Made by a program: the position numbers and the translations under genes. Source: Alphaproteobacteria bacterium (GTDB taxonomy: Bacteria; Myxococcota_A; UBA796; CAJQPC01). From it: DNA of 64,000 bases. Below, piece after piece: positions 1,898 to 52,504 of the stretch. The DNA lies in the NCBI GenBank assembly GCA_020632795.1, contig JACKEV010000010.1, positions 159,127 to 223,126 of the forward strand, in the 5' to 3' direction. The notes beneath the pieces were generated by a model that searched no databases, had not been told where the DNA came from, and saw nothing but the letters and a program-made list of their open reading frames with translations. Numbering within the stretch: position 1 is the first letter of the stretch; each line of letters begins with the position of its first letter.

Positions 1898-3097
1898 TCA
1901 TACTCGGGCTCGAAGGGCCTCCCGGAGCGCCAGACGGCGTAGATCTGCGCTGCGAACTTCCGCCCGGCCGCGCCACCGGCTGTCCTGCTCGACTTGCCCC
2001 TGCTCGACCTTGCGCCTGTAGAAGGCGCGGACGGGCGCGTTGAACTGCCTCGCGGTGGTCGAGGCGAGGAGGATCTGGAGGCGCAGCATTCGGTTGCCCT
2101 TGCGCACCATGCGCGTGCTGTAGCCCCCGTCTCCGCTGCGCTTCGACCCGGGGTAGAGCCCGCAGTAGCCGATGAACTTGTCGACCGTCGCGAAGCGGTG
2201 GGGATCACCGGCTTCGGCCAGCAGGACGGCGAGCGTGAGCTCTCCGACCCCTGGGATGGTCAGCAGAACGTGGTCCTGGCGTGCTCTCTCATGCGTGCGC
2301 CTGGATGAGCGACTCCAGCTCCTGGACGTCCTCGTAGCAGCGACGGATCGCGCGGGTGAGTTGCACGACCGTCTGCTGCACGATCCGCGACCAGTGTGGC
2401 TCAAGCGTCATGGTGGCCAGCTCCTGCAGCCGCTGGAGGTGTTTCAGGCGAACTCGGCCCCCTGGGAGTCCGCAGCTCCGCCAGGTCGGCCTCGGTGGCC
2501 GCCAGCAGCCGCTCAGGCGAAGGGAAGGCCTCCAAGAGCGTGCTCAGCCACAAGGGGTCTTCCCCGAAACCGGCGCGTGAAGCCGGGGAGCAGCTCGGCC
2601 AAGCGCCGACGAAGGCGGTTGAGCAGGCGCGTCCGCTCCTCCACCAGTGGCGGCGCCGCGTCCGCACTGCCATCGACAGCTCGCCGCAAGCGCTCCGGCA
2701 AGGCCTTCGGCGCTGGCCGGAACGTCCGCAGGTACTGCGCGATGTCGTTGGAGTCCGTGCGGTCGCTGCGAGAGCCCCGCAGCTTCCAGCTTCGTGAACT
2801 GCTTGATGGTCAGGGGTTGAGCTCCACCACCGCCACGCCGCTGCCCTCCAGCGCCACCAGCAGTGGCCGATGGTAGGCCGCTGTCGACTCGCAGCCCAGC
2901 AGCACCGGGCCCTCCAAGGGCTCGATGCTCCTCAGCAGCTCGGCAAAACCCTGCGGGTCGTTCGCGAGCGTCTGGCGGGGCCTCACGGGGCTCCCCGTGG
3001 CGTCGACGTAGACGACGTCAAGCTTCCTGCTGGCGACATCGACGCCGACGAAGGTGCGGGCGGTCTGCTGGACCGCGCTCACGCTCTCCTCGGTCAT
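1898..3097 (-). pseudogene. IS110-family transposase, disrupted (N-terminal DEDD domain 2810..3097, frameshifted middle, C-terminal Transposase_20 domain 1898..2404)
   Basis: N-terminal fragment has FVGVDVASRKLDVVYVD...; C-terminal fragment has IPGVGELTLAVLLAEAGDPHRFATVDKFIGYCGLYPGSKRSGD. Both are hallmarks of IS110 transposases, but they sit on at least three separate minus-strand frames (2810..3097, 2401..2673 / 2513..2701, 1898..2404). Paralogous to the intact copy at 14466..15713. Confidence 0.55.
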
Positions 3098-3349
3098 CGC
3101 TTCTCTCCTTCCTTCTGGGTGGGTGGCGACCCGGGGCTCCGGAGACGCCCACCCCGCCGCTGGCTACTGAATTGCGCAGTCGAAGCCGCATGTTGTAATT
3201 CGCGGGCGTGGGGTGGGCGTCCGGACCGAAACTCCATGACGCGGTCGTGCCGCAAGCCCCCGATTACGGGTGTCCTGGGACGCCGCACCCCACAAAACAC
3301 GTTCACGCTCTCACGGCCCGCCAGGGCCTTGGAGGCATAGTAGACCCCC

Positions 3350-4285
3350 ATGTCCCGCCCCAAGCCCGTCGCCCTGGGCGACGTCCGGCTCAGCGTCGTC
3401 CGAGGCCCCCGCGCCGACGGCCTCTGGTACTGGCGAGCCCGCCGCTCCGGCGCCCGCGACACCTTGTGGTCTGGCTGGGCCACCCGAGAGGAGGCCATCG
3501 CCCAGGCCGAGCGCCTCGTCTCCGATGGCCTGCCCGCGCCCGCGCCCCAGCTCCGCGCCGACACCCTCGCCGAGCTGTTCGCGACCTAGCACGCCCACCA
3601 GCACGCCCGCCACGACCTCAGCCCCGAGACCATCCTCAGCTACGACAAGGCCCGCCGACACCTCTCCGCGCTGCTCGGCGACCTCCCGCCTGACGCCCTC
3701 GACCGCCCCAGGGTGGAGGGCTACCGCAACGATCGCCTGGGCGAAGGTGCCTCGCCCCGGCTGGTCGCCCTGGAGCTGCGCGTCCTGCGCATCGCCTGGA
3801 TCTGGGCGGTCGAGGCCGGGCTCGTGCCGGACCGCCCGCTGCCCTCGGTCCGGGTGAAGGTCCAGGGCTTCGTCATCAACCACCGCACGCCGCGCCCCGA
3901 GGAGGTCGTGCGGGTGCTCGACGTGCTGCGCGGCGAACACCGGCTGGCCGTGCTCCTGCTCGCGACGACGGGGGCGAGGATCTCGGAGGTGGCCCAGCTT
4001 CGGCGCTGCGATATCCAGCCTCGGACGGGTCGGCTGACCCTGCGCGGTAAGACGGGCACGCGGAGCTTCCCCCTGCCCGAAGCCGTTCTCGCGCTGCTCC
4101 TCCCTCGCGCGGAGCAGACCGAGGCCCCGCTGCTCGCCATCGAGGGCCGACACCGCGCCGAGGCCATCCGCTCCGCGCTCCGGCGCGCGTGTCGCCGGGC
4201 CCAGGTCCCGCGCTTCACCCCGCACGGACTGCGCCGTATGGTCGTCGACCAGCTCATCCGCGCGGGCGTGCCCGACGGACCTGCG
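3350..4285 (+). pseudogene. tyrosine recombinase/integrase copy A, inactivated (in-frame TAG at 3587-3589; C-terminal catalytic region replaced by an IS66 insertion near 4275)
   Basis: ORFs 3350..3589 and 3713..4594 are in the same frame and together align residue-by-residue with integrase copy B (PKP..VRLS..GPR.DG.WYWRARR, LRGKTG, TPHGLRRMVVDQ). Similarity ends after RAGV, before the catalytic Tyr. Confidence 0.6.
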
Positions 4286-4286
4286 G

Positions 4287-4580
4287 TTGGGGTTCGCGGG
4301 GCTGGCGGGGCTGGTCCAGCAGGAGATGGGGCGGGAGCTGGTGTCGGGGGAGCTGTTCCTGTTCGTGTCGAGACGGAGGACGTCCGCGAAGATCCTGCAC
4401 TGGGACGGGACGGGGCTGTGTCTGTACAGCAAGCGACTGGCCGGCCGGCGGCGATTCGCGGCGCTGTGGGAGCGCGCGGAGCGCGGTCAGGTGCGGCTGA
4501 CGATGGCCGAGCTGGCGCTGTTCCTGGAGGGGGCAGAGGTCAGCCGGCGGCGAGCGTCAAGGTTGTCGATCATTCGCTGA
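4287..4580 (+). CDS. tnpB: IS66 Orf2/TnpB-like accessory protein, N-terminally truncated (TTG start)
   Basis: GELFLFVSRRRTSAKILHWDGTGLCLYSKRLAGRRRF matches the IS66 TnpB core (LF.F.NRR.D..K.L.WDG.G..L..KRLE.G.F). Confidence 0.5.
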   Translation: MGFAGLAGLVQQEMGRELVSGELFLFVSRRRTSAKILHWDGTGLCLYSKRLAGRRRFAALWERAERGQVRLTMAELALFLEGAEVSRRRASRLSIIR

Positions 4581-4597
4581 TTGTATTGCTTTAAATT

Positions 4598-6393
4598 GTG
4601 CAATTGGTTACATATGTGGGCATGAAGCCTGCGCCTGTTCGCTCCAACACCCCCGGATCTCCAGACTCTGCTGCGCGACCTCGCGGCCGCCGAGGCCCGC
4701 GCGGCGGAAGCCGAGGCGTTCGCGGACGCGGCGCGGCAGCGCGCCGACGACGCCGAGGCCCGCGCCGAGCTCCTCGACGTGAAGGTGCAGGCCCAGGAGA
4801 AGCTGCTCACCGCGTCGATGGCGCAGATCGCCTCGCTGACCCGTCGCCCTGGCCGAGGCGACCAGCCGCCCCTGAGCAGCTGGCCCTGGAGTTCGAGATG
4901 CGCGCGGTCCAGCGCCGGCTCGCGGATCTGCAGCGCGAGCGCTTCGGGCAGACCTCCGAACGGCGCGGCTGCCCCGAGGGGAGCCCGCCCAAGGCGAAGC
5001 CCGAGCCGAAGCCGAAGACGGGCCACGGTCCCACGCCCCAGCCGGACCTGGAGCGTGTCCCACAGATGCACCTGCTCGATCAGGCTGATCAGGTCTGCCC
5101 CGCTGCGCGCCTCCTCGTCCGCTGGAGCCCTGGGTCGGCAAGACCTCCGACGCCGAAGAGGTCACCGTCATCGAGCGCACGTTCCGGATCACGGTGCACA
5201 GACGACAGCTCTATCGCTGCGGGGGCTGTGGCCACATCGAGACCGCGCTGGGGCCGCCTCGGCTCATCCCCGGCGGGCGCTACGCCCCCGAGTTCGCCGT
5301 CGCCGTCGCCGCCGACAAGTACGTCAACGCCCAGCCCCTGGCCAGCCAGGTGCGCGAGATGGCCGACCAGGGGCTCCGCGTCACGACACAGACGCTGTGG
5401 GAGCACTTCCGGTCTGGAGGACCAGGCGCTCTACGTGCTGATGCTGCCCACCTACCTCATGCTCCAGAAGCAGATCCTCGATCAGGACGTCGTCTTCGTC
5501 GACGAGACCTCCTGGCGCCTCATGAAGAAGGGCGGCACCCGCCGCTGGTGCTGCTCCACAGCGGGGCTGGGCGCTCACCGACGGTCGGCGCGCCTTCTTC
5601 CAGCTCGCCCCGACCCGAGGCCAGGCTGCCGCCCGGGAACTCCTCCAGGACTACGACGGCGTGGTCATGGCCGACCGCTATGTCGTCTACGAGGCGCTGG
5701 AGAAGGAGCGCTCCCGCAACGGCGGCCAGCAGACTGTGCTCCGCCTCGACGACGACACCCCCCTGCTGCTCCCCACCCCGGACTACGACCTCGCCGCGTG
5801 CTGGATGCACGGACGCAGGGGCTTCGTCAAGGCCGAGCGGCACGGCGAGCCGGACGCCGACACCGCCCTGGATCTCATCGCAGAGCTCTACGCCGTCGAA
5901 GCCCTCGCCCGAGAGCAGGTCGCCGACATCGTCGACCCCGAACAACGCCAGGCCGCCCTCCTCGACGCCCGCCGTGTGCTCCGGGACACCCGCTCCCGGC
6001 CCGTCCTCCAACGCCTCCGCGCCTGGCTCGATCAGGTCGTCGCCGTGCCCACCCTGCCCCTCGACAAGGCCGTCCGCTGGCTCGACAACGGCTGGACCCA
6101 GCTCATCCGCTTCCTCGACGACCCCCGCATCCCCCTCGACAACGGCCTCGCCGAGCGCGTCATCCGAGGCGTCGTCCTCGGCCGCAAGACCTACGCTGGC
6201 TCCCGCTCCGAGAAGGGCGCCAAGCCGCCGCGGAGCGGTTGCTGCGCTCTTCTACAGCATCGTCGAGAGCTGCCGCCTGGAGGGCGTCGACCCCAGGGCC
6301 TTCATGAACGAAGCCGCCCGCCGAGCCCTCCTGGAGCGCGACGCCGCCTTCCTCCCTGAGGACTTCAAGCAGATGCTCGACGCCGACGGCTGA
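4598..6393 (+). pseudogene. IS66-family transposase (TnpC), multiply frameshifted
   Basis: IS66 TnpC motifs are spread across three frames. These are the leucine-zipper/RERFGQTSER region, CGGCGH zinc finger, VVFVDETSWRLMKKGGTRRW, ACWMHGRRGFVKA, DNGLAERVIRGVVLGRKTYAGSRSEKG and the C-terminal SIVESCRLEGVDPRAFMNE. The relevant ORFs are 4598..6307, 5194..6393 and 5661..6359. Confidence 0.6.
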
Positions 6394-6536
6394 GCTGGGC
6401 GGCTGAGGGCGGGGCGAGGTGGCCATCGGCCGGATGTAGGTCGGGGGACGGGCTCGTGGGAGGGGTGGTGGGGCGAGGATGTACGGAAGGCCAGCAACAC
6501 CGGGCCTTTGTGGACCCAGGAGGAGGGATCTCTGTC

Positions 6537-6887
6537 ATGACGACCCGAGCACAGCCGACGTCCGGCAACCGCTTCGTCCGCGCGGCCCGGCCCCGCGCGC
6601 GCACAGACGCCAGCGGCCAGCGCCTCCGCCGCCTGCACGTCCGCGCGGCGCTGTACGCGAGCCCCGAGACCCTCTGCACCGCCAAGGAGTTCGCCGGGGT
6701 GATGGTGCTTCGCGAGGCCACCGCCCAGAAGCTCCAGCCCGCCGGCTTGCGCCCAATGGGGCGCAGCAAGCGCGCCCCCTTTCGATGCTGGCTGGCCGCG
6801 CTCGACGGCGAGCCCGTCGTCCACGATGCCGTCCCCATCGAGCATCCCATACCCCAGCGCTCCAGGAGGCCGAAGCGCTCGACCTGA
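6537..6887 (+). CDS. AlpA/excisionase-family small DNA-binding protein (putative Xis for integrase B)
   Basis: Internal ATG of ORF 6456..6887. LCTAKEFAGVMVLREATAQKL...GRSKRAPFRCWLAALDG resembles the AlpA/Xis HTH pattern (T.KE.A...GVS..T...L...G..P.P.K.G.R...W....WL). It lies immediately upstream of the integrase. Confidence 0.4.
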   Translation: MTTRAQPTSGNRFVRAARPRARTDASGQRLRRLHVRAALYASPETLCTAKEFAGVMVLREATAQKLQPAGLRPMGRSKRAPFRCWLAALDGEPVVHDAVPIEHPIPQRSRRPKRST

Positions 6888-7097
6888 CGGAGCCTCACCC
6901 CCCTCGGCGGCCCCGCCCGTCGTTGACCCAAGGAGACACAGATATCCAAGAAGAACCGACCCAAGCCCGCCGAGGTCGGTGAGGTCCGCCTCAGCGCCAT
7001 CAAGGGTCCCCGCAGCGACGGGGCGTGGTACTGGCGCGCCCGCCGCAAGCGCCAGCGGGACACCCTCTGGACCGGCTGGGCCACCCGGGACGAGGCG

Positions 7098-8039
7098 ATG
7101 GAGACCGTCGCCCGCCTCATCGCCAGCGGCCTGCTGGAGCGGGAGGACCCCCGGCCCAGCACCCGCACGATGCACGATCTCCTGGACCTCTGGCTGGAAC
7201 AGCAGGAGCGCCGCCGGGACCTGAGCCCACAGTCCGTCAAGAACTACACCCGCTGCTGCCGTCACGCCGTCGCGTGGCTGGGAGAGCTTCGCCCCGACGA
7301 CCTCGGGCGGCTGACCCTGGAGCGCTACCGCAACCAGCGCCTGGGCGAGGGTGCGGCCCCCCGAACCATCCAGCAGGAGTTGATCGTACTGCGCATGGCA
7401 TGGCGCTGGGCCGGGGACGCCGGGCTCATCCCGGATCGGGCGCTTCCTTCGGTGAAGATCAAGGTCCAGGGCTATGTGGCGAATCACCACACGCCGAGCC
7501 CTGCCGACGCCGCGCGGGTCATCGCGCTGCTCGACGGGGAGGATCAGCTCGCCGCGCAGCTCCTGGCCACCACTGGGGCGCGCGTCTCCGAGGTCACCGG
7601 CCTCAAGCGCTGTGACGTCGACCCCCGGACCCGGCGGGTCACCCTGCGCGGCAAGACCGGGGCCCGGGTCTTCCCCCTGCCGGAGCCGATCTTCGCGCTG
7701 GTGGCCGATCGGATCGACGGCTCGGCGCGGCCGCTGTTCGACTGGACGACCTCTGTGCCGGGATCGCGGGTTCGTGTGGCGCTCCAGAAGGCGTGTCTGC
7801 GCCTCGGGGTGCCCGTGTTCACGCCCCACGGGCTGCGTCGCATGGTCGTGGACCAGATGATCCGCTCGGGCGTAGACGTCTCGACGGCGGCCAGCCTGAC
7901 CGGGCACAGCGTAGAGGTTATGCTGCGGCACTACCGCAAGGTCAGCGAGGCCGACCGGGTCGAGGCGGTGGCGAAGGCGGGGCTGGGGGTGCTGGGCGGC
8001 AAGGTCATCGAGGGGCCGTGGGCGAAGGCTGGGGGGTAA
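7098..8039 (+). CDS. tyrosine site-specific integrase copy B (intact catalytic domain: R..HxLRR..Y)
   Basis: GARVSEV, TPHGLRRMVVDQMIRSG and LRHYRKV motifs are present. The conserved N-terminal arm (KNRPKPAEVGEVRLSAIKGPRSDGAWYWRARR) lies in-frame upstream, from 6927, with no canonical start codon; it is AAG where copy A has ATG. The true start is therefore ambiguous (6927 to 7098). Confidence 0.7.
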   Translation: METVARLIASGLLEREDPRPSTRTMHDLLDLWLEQQERRRDLSPQSVKNYTRCCRHAVAWLGELRPDDLGRLTLERYRNQRLGEGAAPRTIQQELIVLRMAWRWAGDAGLIPDRALPSVKIKVQGYVANHHTPSPADAARVIALLDGEDQLAAQLLATTGARVSEVTGLKRCDVDPRTRRVTLRGKTGARVFPLPEPIFALVADRIDGSARPLFDWTTSVPGSRVRVALQKACLRLGVPVFTPHGLRRMVVDQMIRSGVDVSTAASLTGHSVEVMLRHYRKVSEADRVEAVAKAGLGVLGGKVIEGPWAKAGG

Positions 8040-8560: not shown

Positions 8561-9496
8561 GTGCTCCAGCTCCCCGAGGCGTGGACGGGCGTGGCCCCGG
8601 ACGGCTCCTGCGAGCAGCCCGCCGAGGTCGCCGAGGTCAGCACCGCCCAGCAGCTCGGGCAGGCGGCGGGCGGCGCCTGGAACGCCGTCGAGGGCGCGGC
8701 GGGGGACTTCGTCAACACGGCCACCGACCAGAGCGCAGAGCTGTGGGCCTGGCTGTTCGGCGAGGACGCGGGGCCCGACCTGGGCGAGTGCGCCGGCCCC
8801 GAGGTGGAGCTGGAGACCCTGTTCACGAGCGAGCGGCTGAACGCCCAGCAGATCGCCGAGGCCCGCACGCTGATCGCTCAGCTCCCCGAGGCCGACCAGG
8901 GCGCCTGGTACGAGCAGCTCCAGGGCAAGGTGCCCTACCACAACCAGCGGAACAACGAGTCCCCCAACGAGGGGGAGAGCGGGGGCACCTGCAACCTCAC
9001 CGCGCTGGCGATGTGCCTGGAGTACCTGGGCGTGGCCAACCCCCGCCCCGAGATGCAGTTCGAGGACGCGCTGGACCAGCTCCGGATCGAGCAGAACCTC
9101 GGCCCGCTGGCGAGCTGGAACACCTGGAACCTGCTCGCCCAGCACCTGGGCAAGCGCATCGAGTTCCGCGACGCCGGCAAGCACGACCAGGCGTGGTTCG
9201 AGTCCACCCTGAAGGGCTGGCTCCAGGGCGATGGGGTGCTGTGCTCCATCGCAGGGCACGTCGTCCGCATCCAGGGCATGAACGAGGACGGCCTCGTCGT
9301 GGACGACCCCTACGGCCTCTCGATCCTCCGGCCCCGCTCCAACGGCAAGCCCTACTCCTGGGCGCCCAAGGGCCGGAATGGCTACAAGGAGCACGGCGTC
9401 GACGGCACCCACGAGACGAACCTGGGTGAGGACATGGTGTGGCCCTGGGCGGACGTCGTGAAGTACAACTTCCCCACCTTCGGAGTCGTCAAGTGA
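8561..9496 (+). CDS. papain-fold cysteine peptidase, C39-like (Peptidase_C39_2/BtrH-like) domain protein, 311 aa
   Basis: Catalytic Cys motif GESGGTCNLTALAMCLEYLG (G.C...LAM.L.Y.G) is followed by a His in SIAGHVVRIQG, giving the papain-like Cys-then-His order. GC3 is very high. GTG start; no signal peptide. Confidence 0.6.
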   Translation: MLQLPEAWTGVAPDGSCEQPAEVAEVSTAQQLGQAAGGAWNAVEGAAGDFVNTATDQSAELWAWLFGEDAGPDLGECAGPEVELETLFTSERLNAQQIAEARTLIAQLPEADQGAWYEQLQGKVPYHNQRNNESPNEGESGGTCNLTALAMCLEYLGVANPRPEMQFEDALDQLRIEQNLGPLASWNTWNLLAQHLGKRIEFRDAGKHDQAWFESTLKGWLQGDGVLCSIAGHVVRIQGMNEDGLVVDDPYGLSILRPRSNGKPYSWAPKGRNGYKEHGVDGTHETNLGEDMVWPWADVVKYNFPTFGVVK

Positions 9497-10014
9497 ACCT
9501 CCCCTACCCTGCTGCTCTCCTGCTCTCGCTCCTGCTCACCGGCTGCTCCGGGGACAGCGCGCCGCCGGCCCAACCCGCGCCCGCCCCCCAGGCCGCCCCG
9601 GTCGAGCCGGCACCCGCCCCGGCGGCTCCCCCAGCCCCGGACCTGTGGAGCGACGACTGCAAGACCTGGGCGGGCTTCGAGGTGCCGATCCAGGACAACG
9701 AGGGCATGGCCTCCGCGAAGCTCGCCAAGGATCAGCTGGCCGAGGGCCCCTGCAAGCCGGGCGAAGCCCCGAAGGGAGCGGACAGCTTGATCGTCGTCAT
9801 CGAGCACGCCAAGGTGGAGGACAGCAGCCCCCTGAACCGCGCCTACGAGCAGCGGGCTGAGGCCGCCGGCTGGAAGCGGACGAGCCCGCCCGATCACCTC
9901 CCGCGCTTCGAGCACGCTGACCACCCGGGGTGGGTGCTCACGATGGACGGCCACCTGGACGAGGAGGGCGGGGGCTTCCTGGAGCTGCACTTCATCGTCA
10001 AGCCGAAGGGGTGA
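9493..10014 (+). CDS. lipoprotein (173 aa), translationally coupled to the upstream peptidase
   Basis: GTG start overlaps the peptidase stop (GTGA). N-terminus VNLPYPAALLLSLLLTGCSGDS is a lipoprotein signal with an LTGC lipobox. Confidence 0.5.
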   Translation: MNLPYPAALLLSLLLTGCSGDSAPPAQPAPAPQAAPVEPAPAPAAPPAPDLWSDDCKTWAGFEVPIQDNEGMASAKLAKDQLAEGPCKPGEAPKGADSLIVVIEHAKVEDSSPLNRAYEQRAEAAGWKRTSPPDHLPRFEHADHPGWVLTMDGHLDEEGGGFLELHFIVKPKG

Positions 10015-10310
10015 GCCCACCCGAGACCCCCGAACTGCTCGCCCAGGCCCTGCGCCGCTCCTCGAACTGGACCTGGGTGTCCGGCATGCTCATCGTCTAC
10101 GGCAACGGCCGCCGCGCCCTCTACCGAGGCGTCGTCGACGGCCCCGGCGAGGCCCTGCCCGTACTGAAGCACGACGCCACCGCCGGGTGCCTCATGGGCC
10201 TGCTCGCGGAGACCGGGCCAGGCTGGCAGGCGGTGCTCACCGAGGAGATGGCCCGGGGCGGGGACTGGAGGCTGGCGGTGGCGCGGGCGCTGTGGAGGCA
10301 GTGGAGGTAG
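10011..10310 (+). CDS. small hypothetical protein (99 aa), third gene of the coupled module
   Basis: GTG start overlaps the lipoprotein stop (GTGA). Good GC3. No recognisable domain. Confidence 0.3.
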   Translation: MSPPETPELLAQALRRSSNWTWVSGMLIVYGNGRRALYRGVVDGPGEALPVLKHDATAGCLMGLLAETGPGWQAVLTEEMARGGDWRLAVARALWRQWR

Positions 10311-10319
10311 GCGAGTTCG

Positions 10320-10655
10320 ATGCCGCTTGTCACAATCTGTCCGCTCGTGCCATATAGAAGTGGAGCCCCGTCGGGTCCCTCACGCTCGTTGACATCCATA
10401 GAGAAGAACGCTCGACTCAACGGTCCGCTCCGGCACCGCGAATCTGCGAACCTCTCCCACTCCGCGATATGGCAGGTTCAGCCGTTGAGGTTCTCTGAGG
10501 TCTCATACAGCGCGATAGTTCTAATCAAAGGTGATGTATCAACGACTCCGGTTTCCCGAGGTGTTGGCTGCGTCAAGAGCTGGAGAAGCCCGGAGGTCGA
10601 GGTTCGCAAAACCTGTTGGATTCGACCGGCGATATCAGGTAGTTGGAGAGCAAGG
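10320..10655 (+). promoter_or_regulatory. putative CRISPR leader for array 1 (AT-richer than surroundings)
   Basis: GC content drops locally immediately upstream of the first, consensus, repeat. The degenerate repeats are at the far (3') end of the array, so the leader is expected on this side. Confidence 0.35.
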
Positions 10656-10991
10656 GTCCCGGGACCCCGCCCGTCACGGAGGGCATTGAAACGACTGTAT
10701 TGTTTGTCCACAGCAAAAAATGCCTGCCTCCGTCCCGGGACCCCGCCCGTCACGGAGGGCATTGAAACACGTCGTCCTGCCAGGCAGTGATTCGTACGAT
10801 CCAGGTCCCGGGACCCCGCCCGTCACGGAGGGCATTGAAACCTCCTTGTAGAGTGGATGTTTTCTGAATTGAGGACCAGGTCCCGGGACCCTGCCCGTCA
10901 CAGAGGGCATTGAAACTGTGGCGTAATACGCCACGGGGATTTCGAAGATGTCCTGTCCCGGGACCCTGCCCGTCACAGAGGGCATTGAAAG
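10656..10991 (+). CRISPR. CRISPR array 1: five 37-bp repeats GTCCCGGGACCCCGCCCGTCACGGAGGGCATTGAAAC and four spacers (36-39 bp); no adjacent cas genes
   Basis: Repeats start at about 10656, 10732, 10805, 10880 and 10955. The first three are identical. Repeat 4 has two substitutions, and repeat 5 shares these plus a terminal G in place of C. The 3' end ATTGAAAC/G matches the Cas6-generated 8-nt crRNA 5' handle, fixing + strand orientation. Spacers are unique and AT-richer than the genome. Confidence 0.9.
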
Positions 10992-10997
10992 AGCCGA

Positions 10998-11016
10998 ATC
11001 AGCAATCATTGCTGAT
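10998..11016. repeat. perfect palindrome ATCAGCAAT-C-ATTGCTGAT directly after the last CRISPR repeat
   Basis: 9-1-9 inverted repeat read directly from the sequence. It could be a hairpin/terminator or a terminal structure of the IS. Confidence 0.4.
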
Positions 11017-13020
11017 CAGGCCACTTTCCCCTCCGAGTCGCCAACCTGCGCCTCCAGGCGTCACAGTGACAGTAGAATCGCCCATAAAATCGGTATCTTT
11101 CGCGCCCTCCCCAGAATTGGACACAGACCTCCCCCAACCCCCAGCGTCCGTCGAAGGAGACGCGGTCAGGCCGCGTGGGCGGCAGGCGGGCCGCGCCCCA
11201 TGAGGCCCTCGACGAAGGCGCGTGCGTCGAGTTTGGAGACCCAGGCGCGGGCGTGCTGGAGCAGGGCGAGGAGGTTCAGGCGGATGAGCCAGAAGGACCA
11301 GCGACGGTGGCGGGCGGCTTCGAGCTTGAGCTTGCTCTTCTTCTCGTCGTTGGAGCGCTCGCAGCCGGTGCGCTTCTTGTAGAGCTTGCGGTATCCGGCG
11401 CTGTTCCGTGCGATGAGGGGGAACAGGCGGGGGTTGTCGTGGACGTTCATGTTGAGGACGGGGCCCCACTTCGTCTCGGGTTGACAGCGCCAGTCGGGCT
11501 CGCCGTCCGGGGCCAGGGGACAGCGTTCGAGCTTGTTGGCCTTGACGGGGCAGAGGAAGACGCTCTGGTTGGGCCCGCCGGTGCCCCAGGCGGCCATCTC
11601 GGCGCCGGCCTGGCACAGTGGGATGGCGCGAGGGCTCAGGGCGATGTCGGGTCGGGTGGGGTGGACGGCGGGCACGTCGGAGCGCAGCGGGATGACCGGC
11701 CGCATGCCCCAATCCATCGCGTGGGCGTGGTTGGCGCGGGCGTCGTGGCCGGCATCGGCGATGAAGACGGAGAGGCCGAAGCGGTGGCGCTCATCACGGA
11801 GGAGCTTGCCGAGCTGCTCGATGGCCAGGGCACAAGCGCGGTGCTCGCTGTGATCCGCAGGGTCCAGGCGGACCAACAGCGGGAGGTCGTGTCCGTCGAC
11901 CGGGGCGAGCAGCTCGTAGGAGTGGTAGCCGAAATCGTAGCGGTCTCGGTAGGCGTCGTAGCCGCGCTTCGCGTCGGGGTCGGACCAGACCCGATCGTGG
12001 TCGCAGCGGGCGGTCCGGGGACACGAACAGACGCGGCGACCGTGGCCGTTGGCGGCGGTGACCAGCGGGCTGGCGTCCCCTGCGACGATGAGGGCCTCGA
12101 TGTCCTCCAGCAGCCCACGGCGCACAGAGACCTCCACCCCGCAGGTCCACAGGATGCGGGTCAGGCGGCCCAGCAGGTCGTCGGGGTTGCCGGAGCTCCG
12201 GCGGGCCCGGAGCGCGTCGACCAGCTTCGCGGTGGCGTTCTTCTCCGGCTTGCCCTTGCGGCGCTCCCAGCCGGGCTGGGCGCTCTCGGCGCGCCGCCGC
12301 TCCAGCGCGCTGGGGCGAATGGCGACCCCCTCCCGAAGTGGCCCGTCGTGAAGACGGTGGAGGAAGCTGTAGAACGCGCCGATGCTCGGGGACGGGGCGC
12401 GGCGGCGTCCGGGCTCGGGTTCGGCCAGGCCGGCGATGGCCTGGAGCACCGGCTCGGCGCGCAGCCGATGGCCCCAGGCGTTGAGCGCGGGCTCCCCGAC
12501 CAGCGGACCGAGCAGCAGGCAACGCAGCATGACCACCGGGTCCCAGGGCTCGCCGCCGCGGGGGCTCGGCGCGTAGCAGGCCTCCAGGACCGGCCGCGCG
12601 GGCTCCAGCTCGAGGAACCACAGCGTCGTCAACGCGGACGCGTAGAGCCGCAGCTTGTCGCGAAGGTCCGGGCGCCCAGCGAGGGCCTGAAGGCGGGAGA
12701 GGACGAGGTCGTGATAGCATGAGGATGGAGGGGGCGTCATCGTTCTTTTTCGATTTAATTAGGTTTGAAGCGGAGAATTCCGCTGTTTCGATGATCGCCC
12801 CCTTTTCACGCATCGCCAAGCTCAAGGCGGGCTGGGGCGGGCTCGGTGCAGACTCGGTGCCGGCGAGGCGCGCGAATGGTAATCGGTGGGGTCATGATGG
12901 GCCGATGCGGGTTGAGGCGGATGTGACGGGTGGGGTGAAGGGGAGGAATGTCAGGGGGTTGGGATTGGTGATCGGGGTCTTGAAACGTAGTAGCAGCTGT
13001 AAAGACCTGTCGTATCGTAC
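11000..13020 (-). mobile_element. insertion sequence carrying the IS4/IS5-type transposase, inserted between the two CRISPR arrays (boundaries approximate)
   Basis: A relic array-1 repeat at 13021-13048 on the far side of the transposase gene implies insertion into a formerly continuous array. Terminal IRs and target-site duplications could not be defined by eye. Confidence 0.35.
11166..12740 (-). CDS. IS4/IS5-superfamily DDE transposase (524 aa)
   Basis: C-terminal Y-(2)-R-(3)-E-(6)-K signature is present (YKKRTGCERSNDEKK). The Asp residues of the DDE motif lie in VFIADAGHD and DFGYHSYELLAP contexts. Uninterrupted ORF with good GC3. Confidence 0.7.
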   Translation of the reverse strand: MTPPPSSCYHDLVLSRLQALAGRPDLRDKLRLYASALTTLWFLELEPARPVLEACYAPSPRGGEPWDPVVMLRCLLLGPLVGEPALNAWGHRLRAEPVLQAIAGLAEPEPGRRRAPSPSIGAFYSFLHRLHDGPLREGVAIRPSALERRRAESAQPGWERRKGKPEKNATAKLVDALRARRSSGNPDDLLGRLTRILWTCGVEVSVRRGLLEDIEALIVAGDASPLVTAANGHGRRVCSCPRTARCDHDRVWSDPDAKRGYDAYRDRYDFGYHSYELLAPVDGHDLPLLVRLDPADHSEHRACALAIEQLGKLLRDERHRFGLSVFIADAGHDARANHAHAMDWGMRPVIPLRSDVPAVHPTRPDIALSPRAIPLCQAGAEMAAWGTGGPNQSVFLCPVKANKLERCPLAPDGEPDWRCQPETKWGPVLNMNVHDNPRLFPLIARNSAGYRKLYKKRTGCERSNDEKKSKLKLEAARHRRWSFWLIRLNLLALLQHARAWVSKLDARAFVEGLMGRGPPAAHAA

Positions 13021-13048
13021 GTCCCGGGACCCTGCCCGTCACGGAGGG
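13021..13048 (+). repeat. relic fragment of the array-1 CRISPR repeat (28/28 match to the degenerate array-1 variant GTCCCGGGACCCTGCCCGTCACGGAGGG)
   Basis: Direct sequence match. It lies 14 bp upstream of the first array-2 repeat. Confidence 0.6.
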
Positions 13049-13062
13049 AGGCAAGCCCGGCT

Positions 13063-13389
13063 ATCCCTCTCCCCGCTCGTCGGGGAGCCTCATTGAAGCG
13101 GATTCAGCCTGGATGCGGCGGCGCTCCCGGACGACGTCCCTCTCCCCTCTCGTCGGGGAGCCTCATTGAAGCGTCATCAGTCGTCGTCGGACAGCGCGGC
13201 CTTGGGGGTCCCTCTCCCCGCTCGTCGGGGAGCCTCATTGAAGCGGATTCAGCCTGGATGCGGCGGCGCTCCCGGACGACGTCCCTCTCCCCGCTCGTCG
13301 GGGAGCCTCATTGAAGCTTCACGATGGCGTCGAAGGCGGGGTGGTAGGAGGTGTCCCTCTCCCCGCTCGTCGGGGAGAGAGAACGGGCG
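13063..13389 (+). CRISPR. CRISPR array 2: 37-bp repeats GTCCCTCTCCCCGCTCGTCGGGGAGCCTCATTGAAGC (4 full plus 1 truncated terminal repeat), 4 spacers of 35-36 bp with spacer 1 identical to spacer 3
   Basis: Repeats start at about 13063, 13136, 13208, 13281 and 13353; the last diverges after 25 nt. There is an internal CTCCCC/GGGGAG stem. Both arrays share the 5' GTCCC and the 3' CATTGAA(A/G)C. Spacers 13100-13135 and 13245-13280 are identical. Confidence 0.85.
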
Positions 13390-14399
13390 TTAATTTTCGT
13401 GGCAGATCGTAACGGCGCTTCAAGGAAGCTCCCCGATGAGCGAGGAGCCTCACGGGACCTACTCCTCCCCCACCAGCCCCGCCGCGATCCTCTCGGCCAG
13501 CTCATCCAGCTCCGGTTCGCCGAGCTGCATCAGCACGCTGAGCAGGTAGCCGTCCGCGGTGAGGTACGCCCACCGCACGGCAGCCCGGAGCTGACGCAGC
13601 AGCCGCCTACGCCGCCGCCGCCGCGCCCTCGCATCAAGCGCGACCACCGTGGACCTCCTGCCGCCCCTGGCGGCGCTCCTGGCGCAGCGCGGTGAGCGCC
13701 GGGTGCTGGACCAGGCGCAGCACATCGGCCGCCAGCATGGCGACCCCGAGCGCGGCGGCCAGGGGGCTCTCAGCCCCGGCGAGGGCGCGCAGGGACTCCT
13801 TCAAGGCGAGGCCGTGCTCGTCCCAGGCGGTGTTCCAGGCGGCGCGGCGTTCGGATGCGGTCCTCATCGGTGGTGTCTCCTCTCCGGGTGGGCTACAGGC
13901 AGTCCATCGTCTTCGGACGGTCTCTCGGTGTTGGGAGGAATCCCCCTCCCCCTCTCGGCGCCGACTGCGGCCCCATCGCCTCGTGGCGGTGGGGTCGAAG
14001 CGCTTCAGGGGGCACGGCGAAGGGGCGGCCGGCGCGGCTGAGCGCGGCCGGCGGGCGCAGGAGGCCCTCGGGGTGGTCCTCATGTAGCCCCCAGGATGTC
14101 AAGGTCCCGCTTGTCGAGCATCGTCTCATCGCTGCAGGGGGAGGGGTTCGGGGAAGGGGGGCACGCCCCCCTCCCCGTACGCAGCGAGTGCATGGCTGCG
14201 AACCGGTGTGGGTGTCGTGGGCCGAGCCTCGCGACGAGGATGTTCGGGGGAGTTCCCTCCCGCCTCGCCCTCATACGTTCAGGGTCGTCAACCGAGGCGG
14301 CCGCGCCCTCAAGATCCTTCATCCAGGCGAGGAGGGAACCGGGAGGTGACTTGTTCTCACTCTCGAGGTCGCTGCCAGGGCGCCTCCAAGGGTCGTCAG

Positions 14400-15800
14400 C
14401 CTCCCTCCCGGGTCCCCGAACGGGTCCATGTCGCAGCAGGCACGCAGTGGCCTCCAGCGGGTGGCTCAGCTCATGATCCTCGCTGCGTCGAAGAAGGCAC
14501 CGTCGCGCACCAGGGCGTGCATCACACGCACGAGTCGGCAGGCGTTGGCGAGGACGGCCTTCTTGGGGATGACCTTGGCGTCGAGCATGCGGGCGCGTGG
14601 TCCTGCCAGCGCATCCATGCCCATGCGCAGCGAGGCCAGGTACAGCACCTGGCGCAGGTAGCGTCGGCCCCTGCGGCTGATGATGCGGCTGGGCTCCACG
14701 TCCTCTGCGGGCTTGTTGCCAGAGGAGACCTCGACCAGATCGAGGCCCGCCATGGACATCAGCTGACGACTGTGCCGGTAGCCCCGCAGATCGCCGAACT
14801 CGCCCAGCAGGATGGCGGTCGTCGTGGCTCCAAGACGTGGGATCGACAGGAGGTTGGGGGCGTAGTCCACCTGCTCCAGGCGGCCCACCATCTCGGCCTC
14901 GATGGCGCACCTGCTGGCGGTGAGCTGGTCCAACTCGTCGAGGTGCTGCATCAGCACAGCGCGGTGCCCCCTCGCCCCATCGCGGATCCCCACCGAGCGC
15001 TTCGCGGCCGCTCGGAGCGCGTCCACCCGCTCCTCGCCGAGGTTGTGGTGACTGGCCTTGTGCAGTCCCTTGATCAGCGTGCGGCGGCGCGCCGCGAGGA
15101 CCTCCTCCGGCGTCGGCACCGTCCGCAGCCACCACAGGCAGGCCGGCGAGTCCATCTTGCCGAACAGCTTCGGCAGCTCCGGGAACAGCACGTCCACATG
15201 CCGGTGGACCCGGTTGAGCACCTGGCTCCGACGCTTCACCATCTGCTCCCGCGTGCGACCCAACAACCGCAGCTCCGCAAACACGCCCTGCGGCGGACGC
15301 CACGGCTTCGCCTTGCCCTGACGGCAAAGATCCGCCACCAGCGCCGCGTCCTTCGCGTCCGTCTTCCGCCACGTCCCGTCGTACAGCTCCTTCGCTCGCT
15401 TCGTATGCAACGGCTGCACCTGGAACAGCTTCACCCCCCGCTCCGACAGCCAGCGTGCCAGCGCCTCGCCGTAGTGGCCCGTCGGCTCGAACCCCACCAC
15501 GAACTCCGTGTACCGCTCCACCTCCCGAACCGCCTCCTCGCAGTACCTCCACAGCGCGCTGAACCCCTCGACGTCGTTCGTGAATCTCTCCGGCTTCGCC
15601 ATCCAACCGTCGTCCAGTGCCGCCACCGCGACGTGATTCCACTTCGCTACGTCTACTCCGATCACCGCCTGGTGTGGCAGGGTAGGCTGCCAACGTCGTC
15701 GGCTCCTTCGCATGTGCTCTCCTCGGCCTCGTGGGCCTGCTCGTCGTTTTCCAACAAACAGGATCCCACTCCGGGAGGGCACATGCCTGGGGGGCTGGGC
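14400..15800 (-). mobile_element. IS110-family insertion sequence (boundaries approximate; IS110 elements lack classical terminal inverted repeats)
   Basis: A single transposase gene is flanked by short non-coding stretches. Ends are not defined. Confidence 0.3.
14466..15713 (-). CDS. IS110-family transposase (intact)
   Basis: N-terminal VIGVDVAKWNHVAVA (DEDD domain) and C-terminal LLSIPRLGATTTAILLGEFGDLRGYRHSRQLMSMAGLDLVEVSSGNK (Transposase_20) are present. The start was moved to the internal ATG at 15713 because a GGAGAG Shine-Dalgarno sits 5 nt upstream. The longer ORF begins at 15782. Confidence 0.75.
   Translation of the reverse strand: MRRSRRRWQPTLPHQAVIGVDVAKWNHVAVAALDDGWMAKPERFTNDVEGFSALWRYCEEAVREVERYTEFVVGFEPTGHYGEALARWLSERGVKLFQVQPLHTKRAKELYDGTWRKTDAKDAALVADLCRQGKAKPWRPPQGVFAELRLLGRTREQMVKRRSQVLNRVHRHVDVLFPELPKLFGKMDSPACLWWLRTVPTPEEVLAARRRTLIKGLHKASHHNLGEERVDALRAAAKRSVGIRDGARGHRAVLMQHLDELDQLTASRCAIEAEMVGRLEQVDYAPNLLSIPRLGATTTAILLGEFGDLRGYRHSRQLMSMAGLDLVEVSSGNKPAEDVEPSRIISRRGRRYLRQVLYLASLRMGMDALAGPRARMLDAKVIPKKAVLANACRLVRVMHALVRDGAFFDAARIMS

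Positions 15801-40078: not shown

Positions 40079-41977
<1,899 letters not shown>

Positions 41978-50677: not shown

Positions 50678-52504
<1,827 letters not shown>

What the first reader, a model, noticed from the sequence alone, without database searches (positions are those of the whole stretch)
10656..13389. Two adjacent arrays use different repeat cores but the same 5' GTCCC and 3' CATTGAA(A/G)C ends
Array 1 repeat is GTCCCGGGACCCCGCCCGTCACGGAGGGCATTGAAAC. Array 2 repeat is GTCCCTCTCCCCGCTCGTCGGGGAGCCTCATTGAAGC. Length (37 nt), the first five nucleotides and the last eight or nine (the Cas6-derived crRNA handle) are conserved, while the stem-forming core differs (array 2 has a clean CTCCCC/GGGGAG stem). 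Within array 1 the repeats drift towards the array-2 side (C to T, G to A, terminal C to G). This looks like either two arrays serviced by one Cas6/effector with handle-only specificity, or a repeat-replacement event captured in progress.
Basis: seen in the sequence. Interest (0 to 1): 0.5.

Follow-up and report, generated by a model that had tools for sequence, protein, structure and literature searches.

The report
Decaying orphan CRISPR locus, two repeat types
Two small CRISPR arrays with different repeats sit fused together, without cas genes, in a transposon-ridden stretch of a high-GC bacterial chromosome; their shared repeat ends are the motif common to many CRISPR families, so the locus is ordinary.

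Summary
The two arrays are real.

1. The "terminal C to G" in array 1 is the edge of a 1,989-bp insertion sequence (10991-12979). It sits inside the fifth repeat and has a 6-bp TTGAAA target duplication.
2. Array 1 continues after the IS with a spacer and a 28-nt truncated repeat. That repeat lies only 14 nt from the first array-2 repeat, so array 2 has no leader.
3. Array 2 is itself rearranged. It has a duplicated spacer, a chimeric last repeat and an inverted repeat-spacer unit.

No cas gene lies in the 64-kb window. The surroundings hold integrases, IS110 and IS66 remnants.

Repeat 2 has the layout of the characterised type I-G repeat: 7-bp stem, 5-nt loop, CCUC, then AUUGAAGC. Its last 12 nt are identical to that repeat. 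Repeat 1 lacks that hairpin. Its only relative found is one metagenomic array (32/37 identical).

The ATTGAAAN end is shared by types I-A, I-B, I-C, I-G and III, so it does not imply one shared Cas6.

Best reading: a decaying composite orphan locus made of two repeat families. The cognate cas operons could not be reached. Low interest.

The parts
10311..10655 (+). Leader-like non-coding region upstream of array 1 (about 56% GC in a 72% GC genome).
   Evidence: It follows the stop of the 99-aa gene at 10310. The third-position GC coding signal disappears here. There is no similarity to the leader of the related array L001 and no sigma-70 consensus hit.
10656..10990 (+). Array 1, leader-proximal part. 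Four complete 37-nt R1 repeats lie at 10656, 10732, 10805 and 10880. The first 36 nt of a fifth lie at 10955-10990. There are four spacers of 36-39 nt.
   Evidence: Repeats 1-3 are identical; repeats 4-5 carry C13T and G23A. Spacer GC is 45-58%.
10991..12979 (-). Insertion sequence (1,989 bp) inside the fifth R1 repeat. Its DDE transposase gene is at 11166-12740 on the minus strand. The 6-bp target-site duplication TTGAAA lies at 10985-10990 and 12980-12985.
   Evidence: PF01609 DDE_Tnp_1, E = 1.7e-6, with weak IS1182/IS5 NCBIfam hits. The terminal inverted repeats GAGCCGAATCAGCAATC and GACCCCGATCACCAATC match at 13 of 17 positions (p about 2e-4 per random pair). Excision restores the exact repeat.
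12980..13048 (+). Array 1, distal part. It comprises the second TSD copy plus the last base of the split repeat (12980-12986), a 34-nt spacer (12987-13020) and a terminal R1 repeat truncated after nt 28 (13021-13048, C13T only).
13049..13062 (.). A 14-nt junction (AGGCAAGCCCGGCT) between the truncated R1 repeat and the first R2 repeat. Its origin is unknown.
   Evidence: No other copy exists in the window.
13063..13377 (+). Array 2, forward part. R2 repeats lie at 13063 (G1A), 13136 (G13T), 13208 and 13281, with nt 1-25 of a fifth at 13353. The 36-nt spacer at 13100-13135 is repeated exactly at 13245-13280.
   Evidence: Spacer GC is 63-72%.
13378..13453 (-). Inverted remnant of array 2. AGAGAAC (13378-13384) resembles the reverse complement of the R2 5' end. 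A 32-nt spacer follows. A minus-strand R2 copy lies at 13417-13453 (29 of 37 identical).
   Evidence: The Smith-Waterman score of reverse-complement R2 here is 42, against at most 29 elsewhere in the 64-kb window. The base-by-base comparison was made by hand on the sequence printed.

Best explanation
This is a composite, decaying orphan CRISPR locus made of two repeat families, not one system with a handle-only rule.

Both arrays read left to right on the + strand from the AT-richer leader at 10311-10655.

Array 1 (R1) grew at the leader end. Its three newest repeats are identical. The older ones keep the ancestral T13. It ends in a 3'-truncated repeat. An IS later landed in the TTGAAA of the fifth repeat.

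Array 2 (R2) is a remnant of a type I-G-style array. In such arrays the Cas5-Cas6 fusion Csb2 binds the 7-bp hairpin. It cuts 4 nt downstream, after CCUC, and leaves the 8-nt AUUGAAGC handle. Array 2 lost its leader when a deletion or illegitimate recombination joined it to the end of array 1. It also suffered a spacer duplication and an inversion through a repeat hairpin.

R1 has only a weak (U)GCCC/GGGC(A) stem that abuts the AUUGAAAC handle. That is the usual Cas6 (or Cas5d) geometry. R1 therefore most likely belonged to a different cas module.

The shared GTC... start and ATTGAA(A/G)C end are the class-1 consensus ends common to many subtypes.

Shown: the anatomy, the IS, the absence of cas genes in the window, and the R2 to I-G resemblance. 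Inferred: the direction of transcription, separate cognate systems, the order of events, and loss of function.
For: - Arrays and repeat variants.
- IS with TIRs and TSD, and exact restoration of the repeat on excision.
- Truncated R1 repeat 14 nt from the first R2 repeat.
- Duplicated spacer.
- Inverted R2 copy.
- No cas or defence hit for any tested ORF across the window: Pfam; PADLOC; NCBIfam.
- The neighbourhood is a mobile-element graveyard. It holds two tyrosine recombinases, a frameshifted IS66, an IS110 fragment and an intact IS110.
- R2 folds as a 7-bp stem with a 5-nt loop.
- The T. sulfidiphilus I-G repeat is GUCAUCCGCGGCAUUUAGCCGCGGCCUCAUUGAAGC, with handle AUUGAAGC. Cleavage occurs 4 nt 3' of a 7-bp stem, and Csb2 binds the hairpin, not the handle.
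- The Thiodictyon I-U repeat has the same CCTCATTGAAGC tail.
- The Rfam DR16 consensus tail is GCCUCAUUGAAaC.
- R1's best relative is the metagenomic array L001, 32/37 identical, with T at position 13 and the same GCCC/GGGC stem. R1 leans to Rfam DR10.
- ATTGAAAN is generic across subtypes.
Against: - The cas genes of this genome were never seen, so 'different cognate systems' is an inference from repeat architecture only.
- The Rfam matches are far below gathering scores (18.3 vs 39; 15.6 vs 35).
- R1 and R2 do share 27 of 38 aligned positions and an identical GTCCC start, which R1's relative L001 (GTCGC) lacks. This could reflect co-adaptation to one adaptation or processing machinery.
- The first four units of array 1 and its leader are intact, so part of the locus may still be functional.
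- The downstream rearrangement does not fit a single simple inversion.
Confidence: 0.6

Rival explanations
1. One machinery serves both arrays. Either a single Cas6-family enzyme with relaxed specificity processes both, or a type III or type I effector accepts any crRNA with an AUUGAA(A/G)C handle. Under this reading the conserved ends are maintained by selection.
For: - The repeats have identical length (37 nt), an identical GTCCC start, and handles that differ at one base.
- The arrays lie in the same orientation on one potential transcript.
- Effector complexes of co-resident systems are known to share crRNAs. Examples are Pyrococcus furiosus and Marinomonas I-F/III-B. This rests on my own knowledge; the Marinomonas paper surfaced (PMC5576922).
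Against: - The ends are the generic ATTGAAAN motif found in many subtypes.
- The I-G enzyme binds the hairpin, not the handle, and R1 lacks that hairpin.
- The repeats match different Rfam families best.
- No cas gene lies nearby.
Confidence: 0.17
2. Array capture or repeat replacement. A leader-plus-R1 module recombined onto the head of a pre-existing R2 array and took over as the growing end. The result would be a functional hybrid array whose old R2 spacers are still transcribed from the new leader.
For: - There is no second leader. The truncated R1 repeat is 14 nt from the first R2 repeat.
- The three leader-proximal R1 repeats are identical, which implies acquisitions after the variant arose.
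- Spacer GC differs sharply between the arrays (45-58% vs 63-72%), consistent with different histories.
Against: - The last R1 repeat lacks its 3' nine bases, that is, the handle for whatever follows.
- The 1,989-bp IS, with an opposite-strand transposase, now separates the leader from everything downstream.
- Array 2 is scrambled by a duplication and an inversion.
- No second example of an R1-R2 hybrid array was found in 185,579 genomes or the metagenome collection.
Confidence: 0.13
3. The arrays are cargo of an integrated mobile element. They would be mini-arrays that exploit the host's Cas proteins against competing elements, which would explain the lack of cas genes.
For: - Tyrosine recombinases lie upstream at 3713-4594 and 6927-8039.
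- IS elements lie on both sides.
- Local GC is slightly lower.
- The three genes between the integrase and the leader have no known function beyond a weak Peptidase_C39_2 hit.
Against: - No tRNA or att-like boundary was found.
- The arrays gave no significant hit in phage or plasmid records or in IMG/VR.
- No spacer matched a virus, a plasmid or the window itself.
- The recombinase and IS genes are partly pseudogenised.
Confidence: 0.08

Closest known systems
Type I-G (formerly I-U) CRISPR repeats. These are Thioalkalivibrio sulfidiphilus GUCAUCCGCGGCAUUUAGCCGCGGCCUCAUUGAAGC (PMC9638904) and Thiodictyon syntrophicum GTTTCCGCGGCGAATTCGCCGCGGCCTCATTGAAGC (PMC5944118).
   Same: R2 shares the whole layout: a GU start, a 7-bp G+C stem, a 5-nt loop, a 4-nt CCUC linker and the 8-nt handle AUUGAAGC. 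The last 12 nt are identical.
   Different: The stem and loop sequences are unrelated. R2 is 37 nt rather than 36. No csb1, csb2, cas8g, cas7 or cas3 genes lie within the window. R1 does not have this layout.
Metagenomic CRISPR array on Ga0209467_1013705 (locus L001), repeat GTCGCGTGCCCCTGCCCGTTACTGAGGGCATTGAAAC.
   Same: It is 32/37 identical to the distal R1 variant. It is 37 nt long, has the same UGCCC/GGGCA stem next to AUUGAAAC and has T at position 13. There is no cas gene on the leader side either.
   Different: It starts GTCGC, not GTCCC. Its leader is unrelated. It has at least 15 repeats, no IS and no R2-type repeats.
Rfam CRISPR-DR10 (RF01323) and CRISPR-DR16 (RF01330).
   Same: R1 aligns end to end with DR10: a short CCC/GGG stem followed by AUUGAAAC. 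R2 aligns with DR16: a hairpin followed by GCCUCAUUGAAaC.
   Different: Scores are 18.3 and 15.6 bits against gathering scores of 39 and 35. Neither repeat is a member by Rfam's criterion.
Orphan and IS-disrupted CRISPR arrays, which are common in bacterial genomes (own knowledge).
   Same: There are no cas genes within at least 10 kb upstream and 50 kb downstream. An IS sits inside a repeat. The terminal repeats are truncated and one spacer is duplicated.
   Different: Two different repeat families are joined head to tail with only 14 nt between them. I could not find this documented elsewhere in the searches run.
Co-resident CRISPR-Cas systems that share crRNAs through a common 8-nt handle. 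Examples are P. furiosus I-A/I-G/III-B and Marinomonas I-F/III-B (PMC5576922). This rests on my own knowledge.
   Same: The handles AUUGAAAC and AUUGAAGC differ by one base, so a downstream effector could in principle load both.
   Different: In the known cases the arrays share the same repeat, or one Cas6 is shown to process both. Here no Cas protein is known and the repeat bodies differ.

Membership tests
CRISPR array (generic) | Near-identical direct repeats of 23-50 nt, regularly interspaced by unique spacers of similar length. | tested here: met
   Array 1 has 37-nt repeats and 34-39-nt spacers. Array 2 has 37-nt repeats and 35-36-nt spacers, one of which occurs twice. The pattern matches 6 times against 0 in shuffles.
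CRISPR array (generic) | An A+T-richer leader upstream of the first repeat, with repeat degeneration at the distal end. | tested here: met
   This is met for array 1. Its leader is 56% GC against 72% for the genome, and the variants and a truncated repeat lie at the distal end. It is not met for array 2, which has only 14 nt upstream.
CRISPR-Cas locus | cas genes adjacent to the array. | tested here: not met
   No Cas family hit was found for any tested ORF between 1 and 64 kb. Pfam. PADLOC. NCBIfam.
Type I-G repeat (for R2) | A roughly 7-bp hairpin, a 4-nt linker, then an 8-nt 5' handle AUUGAAGC. Csb2 cuts 4 nt 3' of the stem. | tested here: met
   R2 has its stem at nt 7-13 and 19-25, a 5-nt loop, CCUC and AUUGAAGC. 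This matches PMC9638904 text and supplement and PMC5944118. Cleavage itself was not tested.
Type I-G repeat (for R1) | The same hairpin, CCUC linker and handle layout. | tested here: not met
   R1 has no stable hairpin (z = +0.96). Its candidate 4-5-bp stem abuts the handle, and it has no CCUC linker.
Type I-G system | Presence of cas8g/csx17, csb1 (cas7), csb2 (cas5-cas6 fusion), cas3 and the adaptation genes. | not testable with these tools
   None is in the window. The rest of the 760-kb NCBI contig and the MAG could not be fetched.
Rfam CRISPR-DR10 / CRISPR-DR16 | Covariance-model score at or above the family gathering score. | tested here: not met
   R1 scores 18.3 bits against 39 for DR10. 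R2 scores 15.6 bits against 35 for DR16.
Insertion sequence (DDE type) | A transposase gene, terminal inverted repeats and a target-site duplication. | tested here: met
   PF01609, E = 1.7e-6. The TIRs match at 13 of 17 positions, the 6-bp TSD is TTGAAA, and excision restores the repeat. The IS family was not resolved; NCBIfam hits are far below cut-off.

The most novel reading that the evidence does not exclude
The locus is a working hybrid array. One leader would drive a transcript carrying two repeat types, and the two types would be matured by two different nucleases: a Csb2-type enzyme for R2 and a separate Cas6 or Cas5d for R1. Alternatively one unusually tolerant enzyme would mature both. 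Under this reading a newly acquired system captured and kept using the spacer memory of an older system. The identical GTCCC start would then reflect convergence on one Cas1-Cas2 integrase.
Probability: 0.06. Interest if true: 0.55.

Novelty: new member of a known kind. Interest (0 to 1): 0.2.

Why it matters
It matters little. The locus adds two previously unsampled repeat sequences. One is clearly of type I-G style. The other has only a single metagenomic relative.

It also gives a tidy example of how CRISPR arrays decay: an IS hits the TTGAAA of a repeat, terminal repeats are truncated, and an inversion runs through a repeat hairpin.

It is a caution too. Shared GTC.../...ATTGAAAN ends are a class-wide feature and cannot be read as evidence for a shared Cas6.

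Only if both repeat types proved to be processed from one transcript would it bear on how spacer memory is transferred between CRISPR systems.

Tried and rejected
- Degenerate pattern for both repeats in 185,579 species-representative genomes: 0 hits.
- A looser pattern without the 5' end: 11 single hits, none in an array, so all are chance.
- The same idea in JGI metagenomes: one related array, L001, with no cas genes on its 3.9-kb contig. Its leader is not alignable to the window leader.
- IMG/VR scan for the repeats: one chance hit inside coding sequence.
- blastn of both arrays (with the IS removed) against PLSDB plasmids and INPHARED phages: only E = 0.2 chance matches.
- 22-mers of three array-1 spacers in IMG/VR: nothing.
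- Spacers against the window itself: no self-target.
- Attempts to reach the source genome. The exact-protein look-ups of DnaK, the transposase and a downstream ORF failed. The upstream gene is 100% identical to NCBI 'H6739_20875 [Alphaproteobacteria bacterium]' on a 760-kb contig. Only a 2.3-kb Logan contig that ends at the first repeat could be fetched.
- Homologues of that gene in other genomes are not next to CRISPR arrays.
- The tblastx comparison of the window with L001 gave only compositional noise.
- I first thought C13T/G23A might be a compensatory pair in an R2-like stem. I rejected this. The sixth repeat has T13 with G23, and the fold places G23 in a loop.
- I first thought the R1 and R2 cores were clearly homologous after a 1-nt shift. 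The shuffle test gives p about 0.09, so this is not established.
- A possible degenerate R2 copy inside the array-1 leader (about 10376) scored no better than background.
- The promoter and terminator scan was uninformative. No tRNA gene lies in the window.
Full report
**Setting**

The window is about 72% G+C chromosomal DNA. It carries grpE-dnaK-dnaJ, Ser/Thr kinases, TPR proteins and PSD2/DUF1501 genes.

The gene just upstream of the arrays (8561-9496) is 100% identical to NCBI protein H6739_20875. That protein comes from a MAG labelled 'Alphaproteobacteria bacterium' and sits on a 760-kb contig. The next best homologue (57%) is from a Myxococcota MAG.

Only a 2.3-kb Logan contig ending at the first repeat could be fetched. 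The rest of the genome was out of reach.

**The observation**

Array 1 has 37-nt repeats GTCCCGGGACCCCGCCCGTCACGGAGGGCATTGAAAC at 10656, 10732 and 10805. Copies with C13T and G23A lie at 10880 and 10955.

Array 2 has 37-nt repeats GTCCCTCTCCCCGCTCGTCGGGGAGCCTCATTGAAGC at 13063 (first base A), 13136 (G13T), 13208 and 13281, plus a 25-nt stump at 13353.

One degenerate pattern written to fit both repeats matches 6 times in the window and never in 100 shuffles. The repeats, their lengths, the common GTCCC start and the common CATTGAA(A/G)C end are therefore real.

1. *An IS inside array 1.* The fifth array-1 repeat reads ...CATTGAAA and is then followed by G. That G is the first base of a 1,989-bp insertion sequence (10991-12979).
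   - The IS encodes a 524-aa DDE transposase on the minus strand (PF01609). NCBIfam gives only weak IS1182/IS5 similarity.
   - Its ends are imperfect inverted repeats, GAGCCGAATCAGCAATC and GACCCCGATCACCAATC. They match at 13 of 17 positions, which has a probability of about 2e-4 for a random pair.
   - It is flanked by a 6-bp duplication TTGAAA (10985-10990 and 12980-12985).
   - Removing the IS and one TTGAAA copy restores GTCCCGGGACCCTGCCCGTCACAGAGGGCATTGAAAC exactly.
2. *Array 1 continues beyond the IS.* It has a 34-nt spacer (12987-13020) and a sixth repeat that stops after 28 nt (13021-13048).
3. *The arrays are fused.* Only 14 nt (AGGCAAGCCCGGCT) separate that stump from the first array-2 repeat. 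Array 2 therefore has no leader.
4. *Array 2 is scrambled.*
   - Its first spacer recurs exactly as its third.
   - Its fifth repeat consists of nt 1-25 followed by AGAGAAC, which resembles the reverse complement of the repeat's own 5' end.
   - After a further 32 nt there is a minus-strand R2 copy at 13417-13453 (29/37 identical). Its alignment score is 42, against at most 29 anywhere else in the window.
   - This looks like an inversion with a breakpoint in the repeat hairpin, although a single simple inversion does not explain every base.

**Context**

No ORF in the 64 kb hits a Cas or other defence family (Pfam; PADLOC; NCBIfam).

The surrounding 2.8-16 kb region is a mobile-element graveyard:
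- an IS110 fragment
- two tyrosine recombinases
- an IS66 transposase broken over several frames
- the IS inside array 1
- an intact IS110-family transposase

There is no tRNA gene in the window.

**The repeats themselves**

R2 folds into a 7-bp stem with a 5-nt loop (-12.1 kcal/mol). The stem is followed by CCUC and AUUGAAGC. This is the architecture of the biochemically characterised type I-G repeat of Thioalkalivibrio sulfidiphilus, GUCAUCCGCGGCAUUUAGCCGCGGCCUCAUUGAAGC.
- There, Csb2 (a Cas5-Cas6 fusion) cuts 4 nt 3' of a 7-bp stem and leaves the 8-nt handle AUUGAAGC.
- Csb2 binds the hairpin tightly but does not bind the handle (PMC9638904).
- The type I-U/I-G arrays of Thiodictyon syntrophicum end in the same 12 nt (PMC5944118).
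- The nearest Rfam model for R2, CRISPR-DR16, has the tail GCCUCAUUGAAaC. The score is only 15.6 bits against a gathering score of 35.

R1 has no hairpin better than its shuffles (z = +0.96). Its only recurrent pairing is (U)GCCC/GGGC(A), which directly abuts AUUGAAAC.
- Its nearest Rfam model is CRISPR-DR10 (18.3 bits against 39).
- The only relative found anywhere is a metagenomic array, L001, with repeat GTCGCGTGCCCCTGCCCGTTACTGAGGGCATTGAAAC. It is 32/37 identical to the distal R1 variant.
- L001 has T at position 13. The C13T 'drift' in the distal repeats of array 1 is therefore the ancestral state. The three identical leader-proximal repeats are the newer ones, which is the usual polarity of CRISPR arrays.
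- These changes do not bring R1 closer to R2.

**Are R1 and R2 related?**

A gapped alignment gives 27 identities in 38 columns. It includes a shifted CCCCGCyCGTCnnGGAG block. The core similarity is not significantly above composition-matched shuffles (p about 0.09).

The 3' ATTGAAAN motif is a general property of many class-1 repeats.
- It is one of the features used to orient CRISPR arrays in general (PMC4147912).
- It appears in reference repeats of types I-A, I-B, I-C and III-B (PMC3737339) as well as I-G.

Shared ends therefore carry little information about a shared Cas6.

**Spacers**

Array-1 spacers are 45-58% G+C. Array-2 spacers are 63-72%. This hints at different target pools or histories.

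No spacer matched the window. None matched phage or plasmid records beyond chance, E = 0.2. The three 22-mers tested found nothing in IMG/VR.

**Interpretation**

The best-supported reading (confidence about 0.6) is a composite orphan locus in decay.
- An R1 array with its leader was later split by an IS.
- It was joined, by deletion or illegitimate recombination, to the remnant of a type I-G-style R2 array.
- The cognate cas genes lie elsewhere or have been lost.

Three rivals remain.
- A single machinery serves both arrays (0.17). This is weakened by the hairpin dependence of the I-G enzyme and by the generic nature of the shared ends.
- Array capture or replacement gave a functional hybrid (0.13). 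The absence of a second leader fits. However, the last R1 repeat lacks its handle, the IS cuts the locus, and no second R1-R2 hybrid was found in any collection.
- The arrays are cargo of an integrated element (0.08).

**Verdict**

The locus is a new member of known kinds: a type I-G-like repeat, and a rare second repeat family with one metagenomic relative. It sits in an ordinary state of decay. Interest is low (0.2).

Noticed in passing
window 2810-8039: A cluster of mobile-element remnants lies upstream of the arrays. It holds an IS110 transposase fragment (2810-3163, minus strand), tyrosine recombinases at 3713-4594 and 6927-8039, and an IS66-family transposase broken across frames (4598-6393).
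   Followed up: partly
window 14466-15782 (-): An intact IS110-family transposase lies 1 kb downstream of array 2 (NCBIfam 'IS110 family RNA-guided transposase', 190 bits). Its ends and any bridge-RNA region were not examined.
   Followed up: no
window 8561-10310 (+): Three co-directional genes end exactly at the array-1 leader. One is a 311-aa protein with a weak Peptidase_C39_2 hit. The other two are proteins of 173 and 99 aa with no family hit. Homologues of the first gene in other genomes are not next to CRISPR arrays.
   Followed up: partly
window 10693-13020 vs 13100-13352: Array-1 spacers are 45-58% G+C and array-2 spacers are 63-72%, in a 72% G+C genome. Array 1 seems to have sampled much lower-GC invaders.
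   Followed up: partly
window 10656-10665 (and each R1 repeat): The first 10 nt of R1, GTCCCGGGAC, form a perfect palindrome containing a CCCGGG site. The related L001 repeat (GTCGCGTGCC) does not have this.
   Followed up: no
window 40079-41977 and 50678-52504: There are two Hsp70/DnaK paralogues 9 kb apart. The first lies in a grpE-dnaK-dnaJ operon.
   Followed up: no
L001 2500-2860 (minus-strand view): The metagenomic contig carrying the R1-like array also has a tandem array of roughly 60-nt units (GGTGAGGTCCGCGT...GTGCAG...) upstream of the CRISPR leader. I saw it only by eye in the sequence.
   Followed up: no
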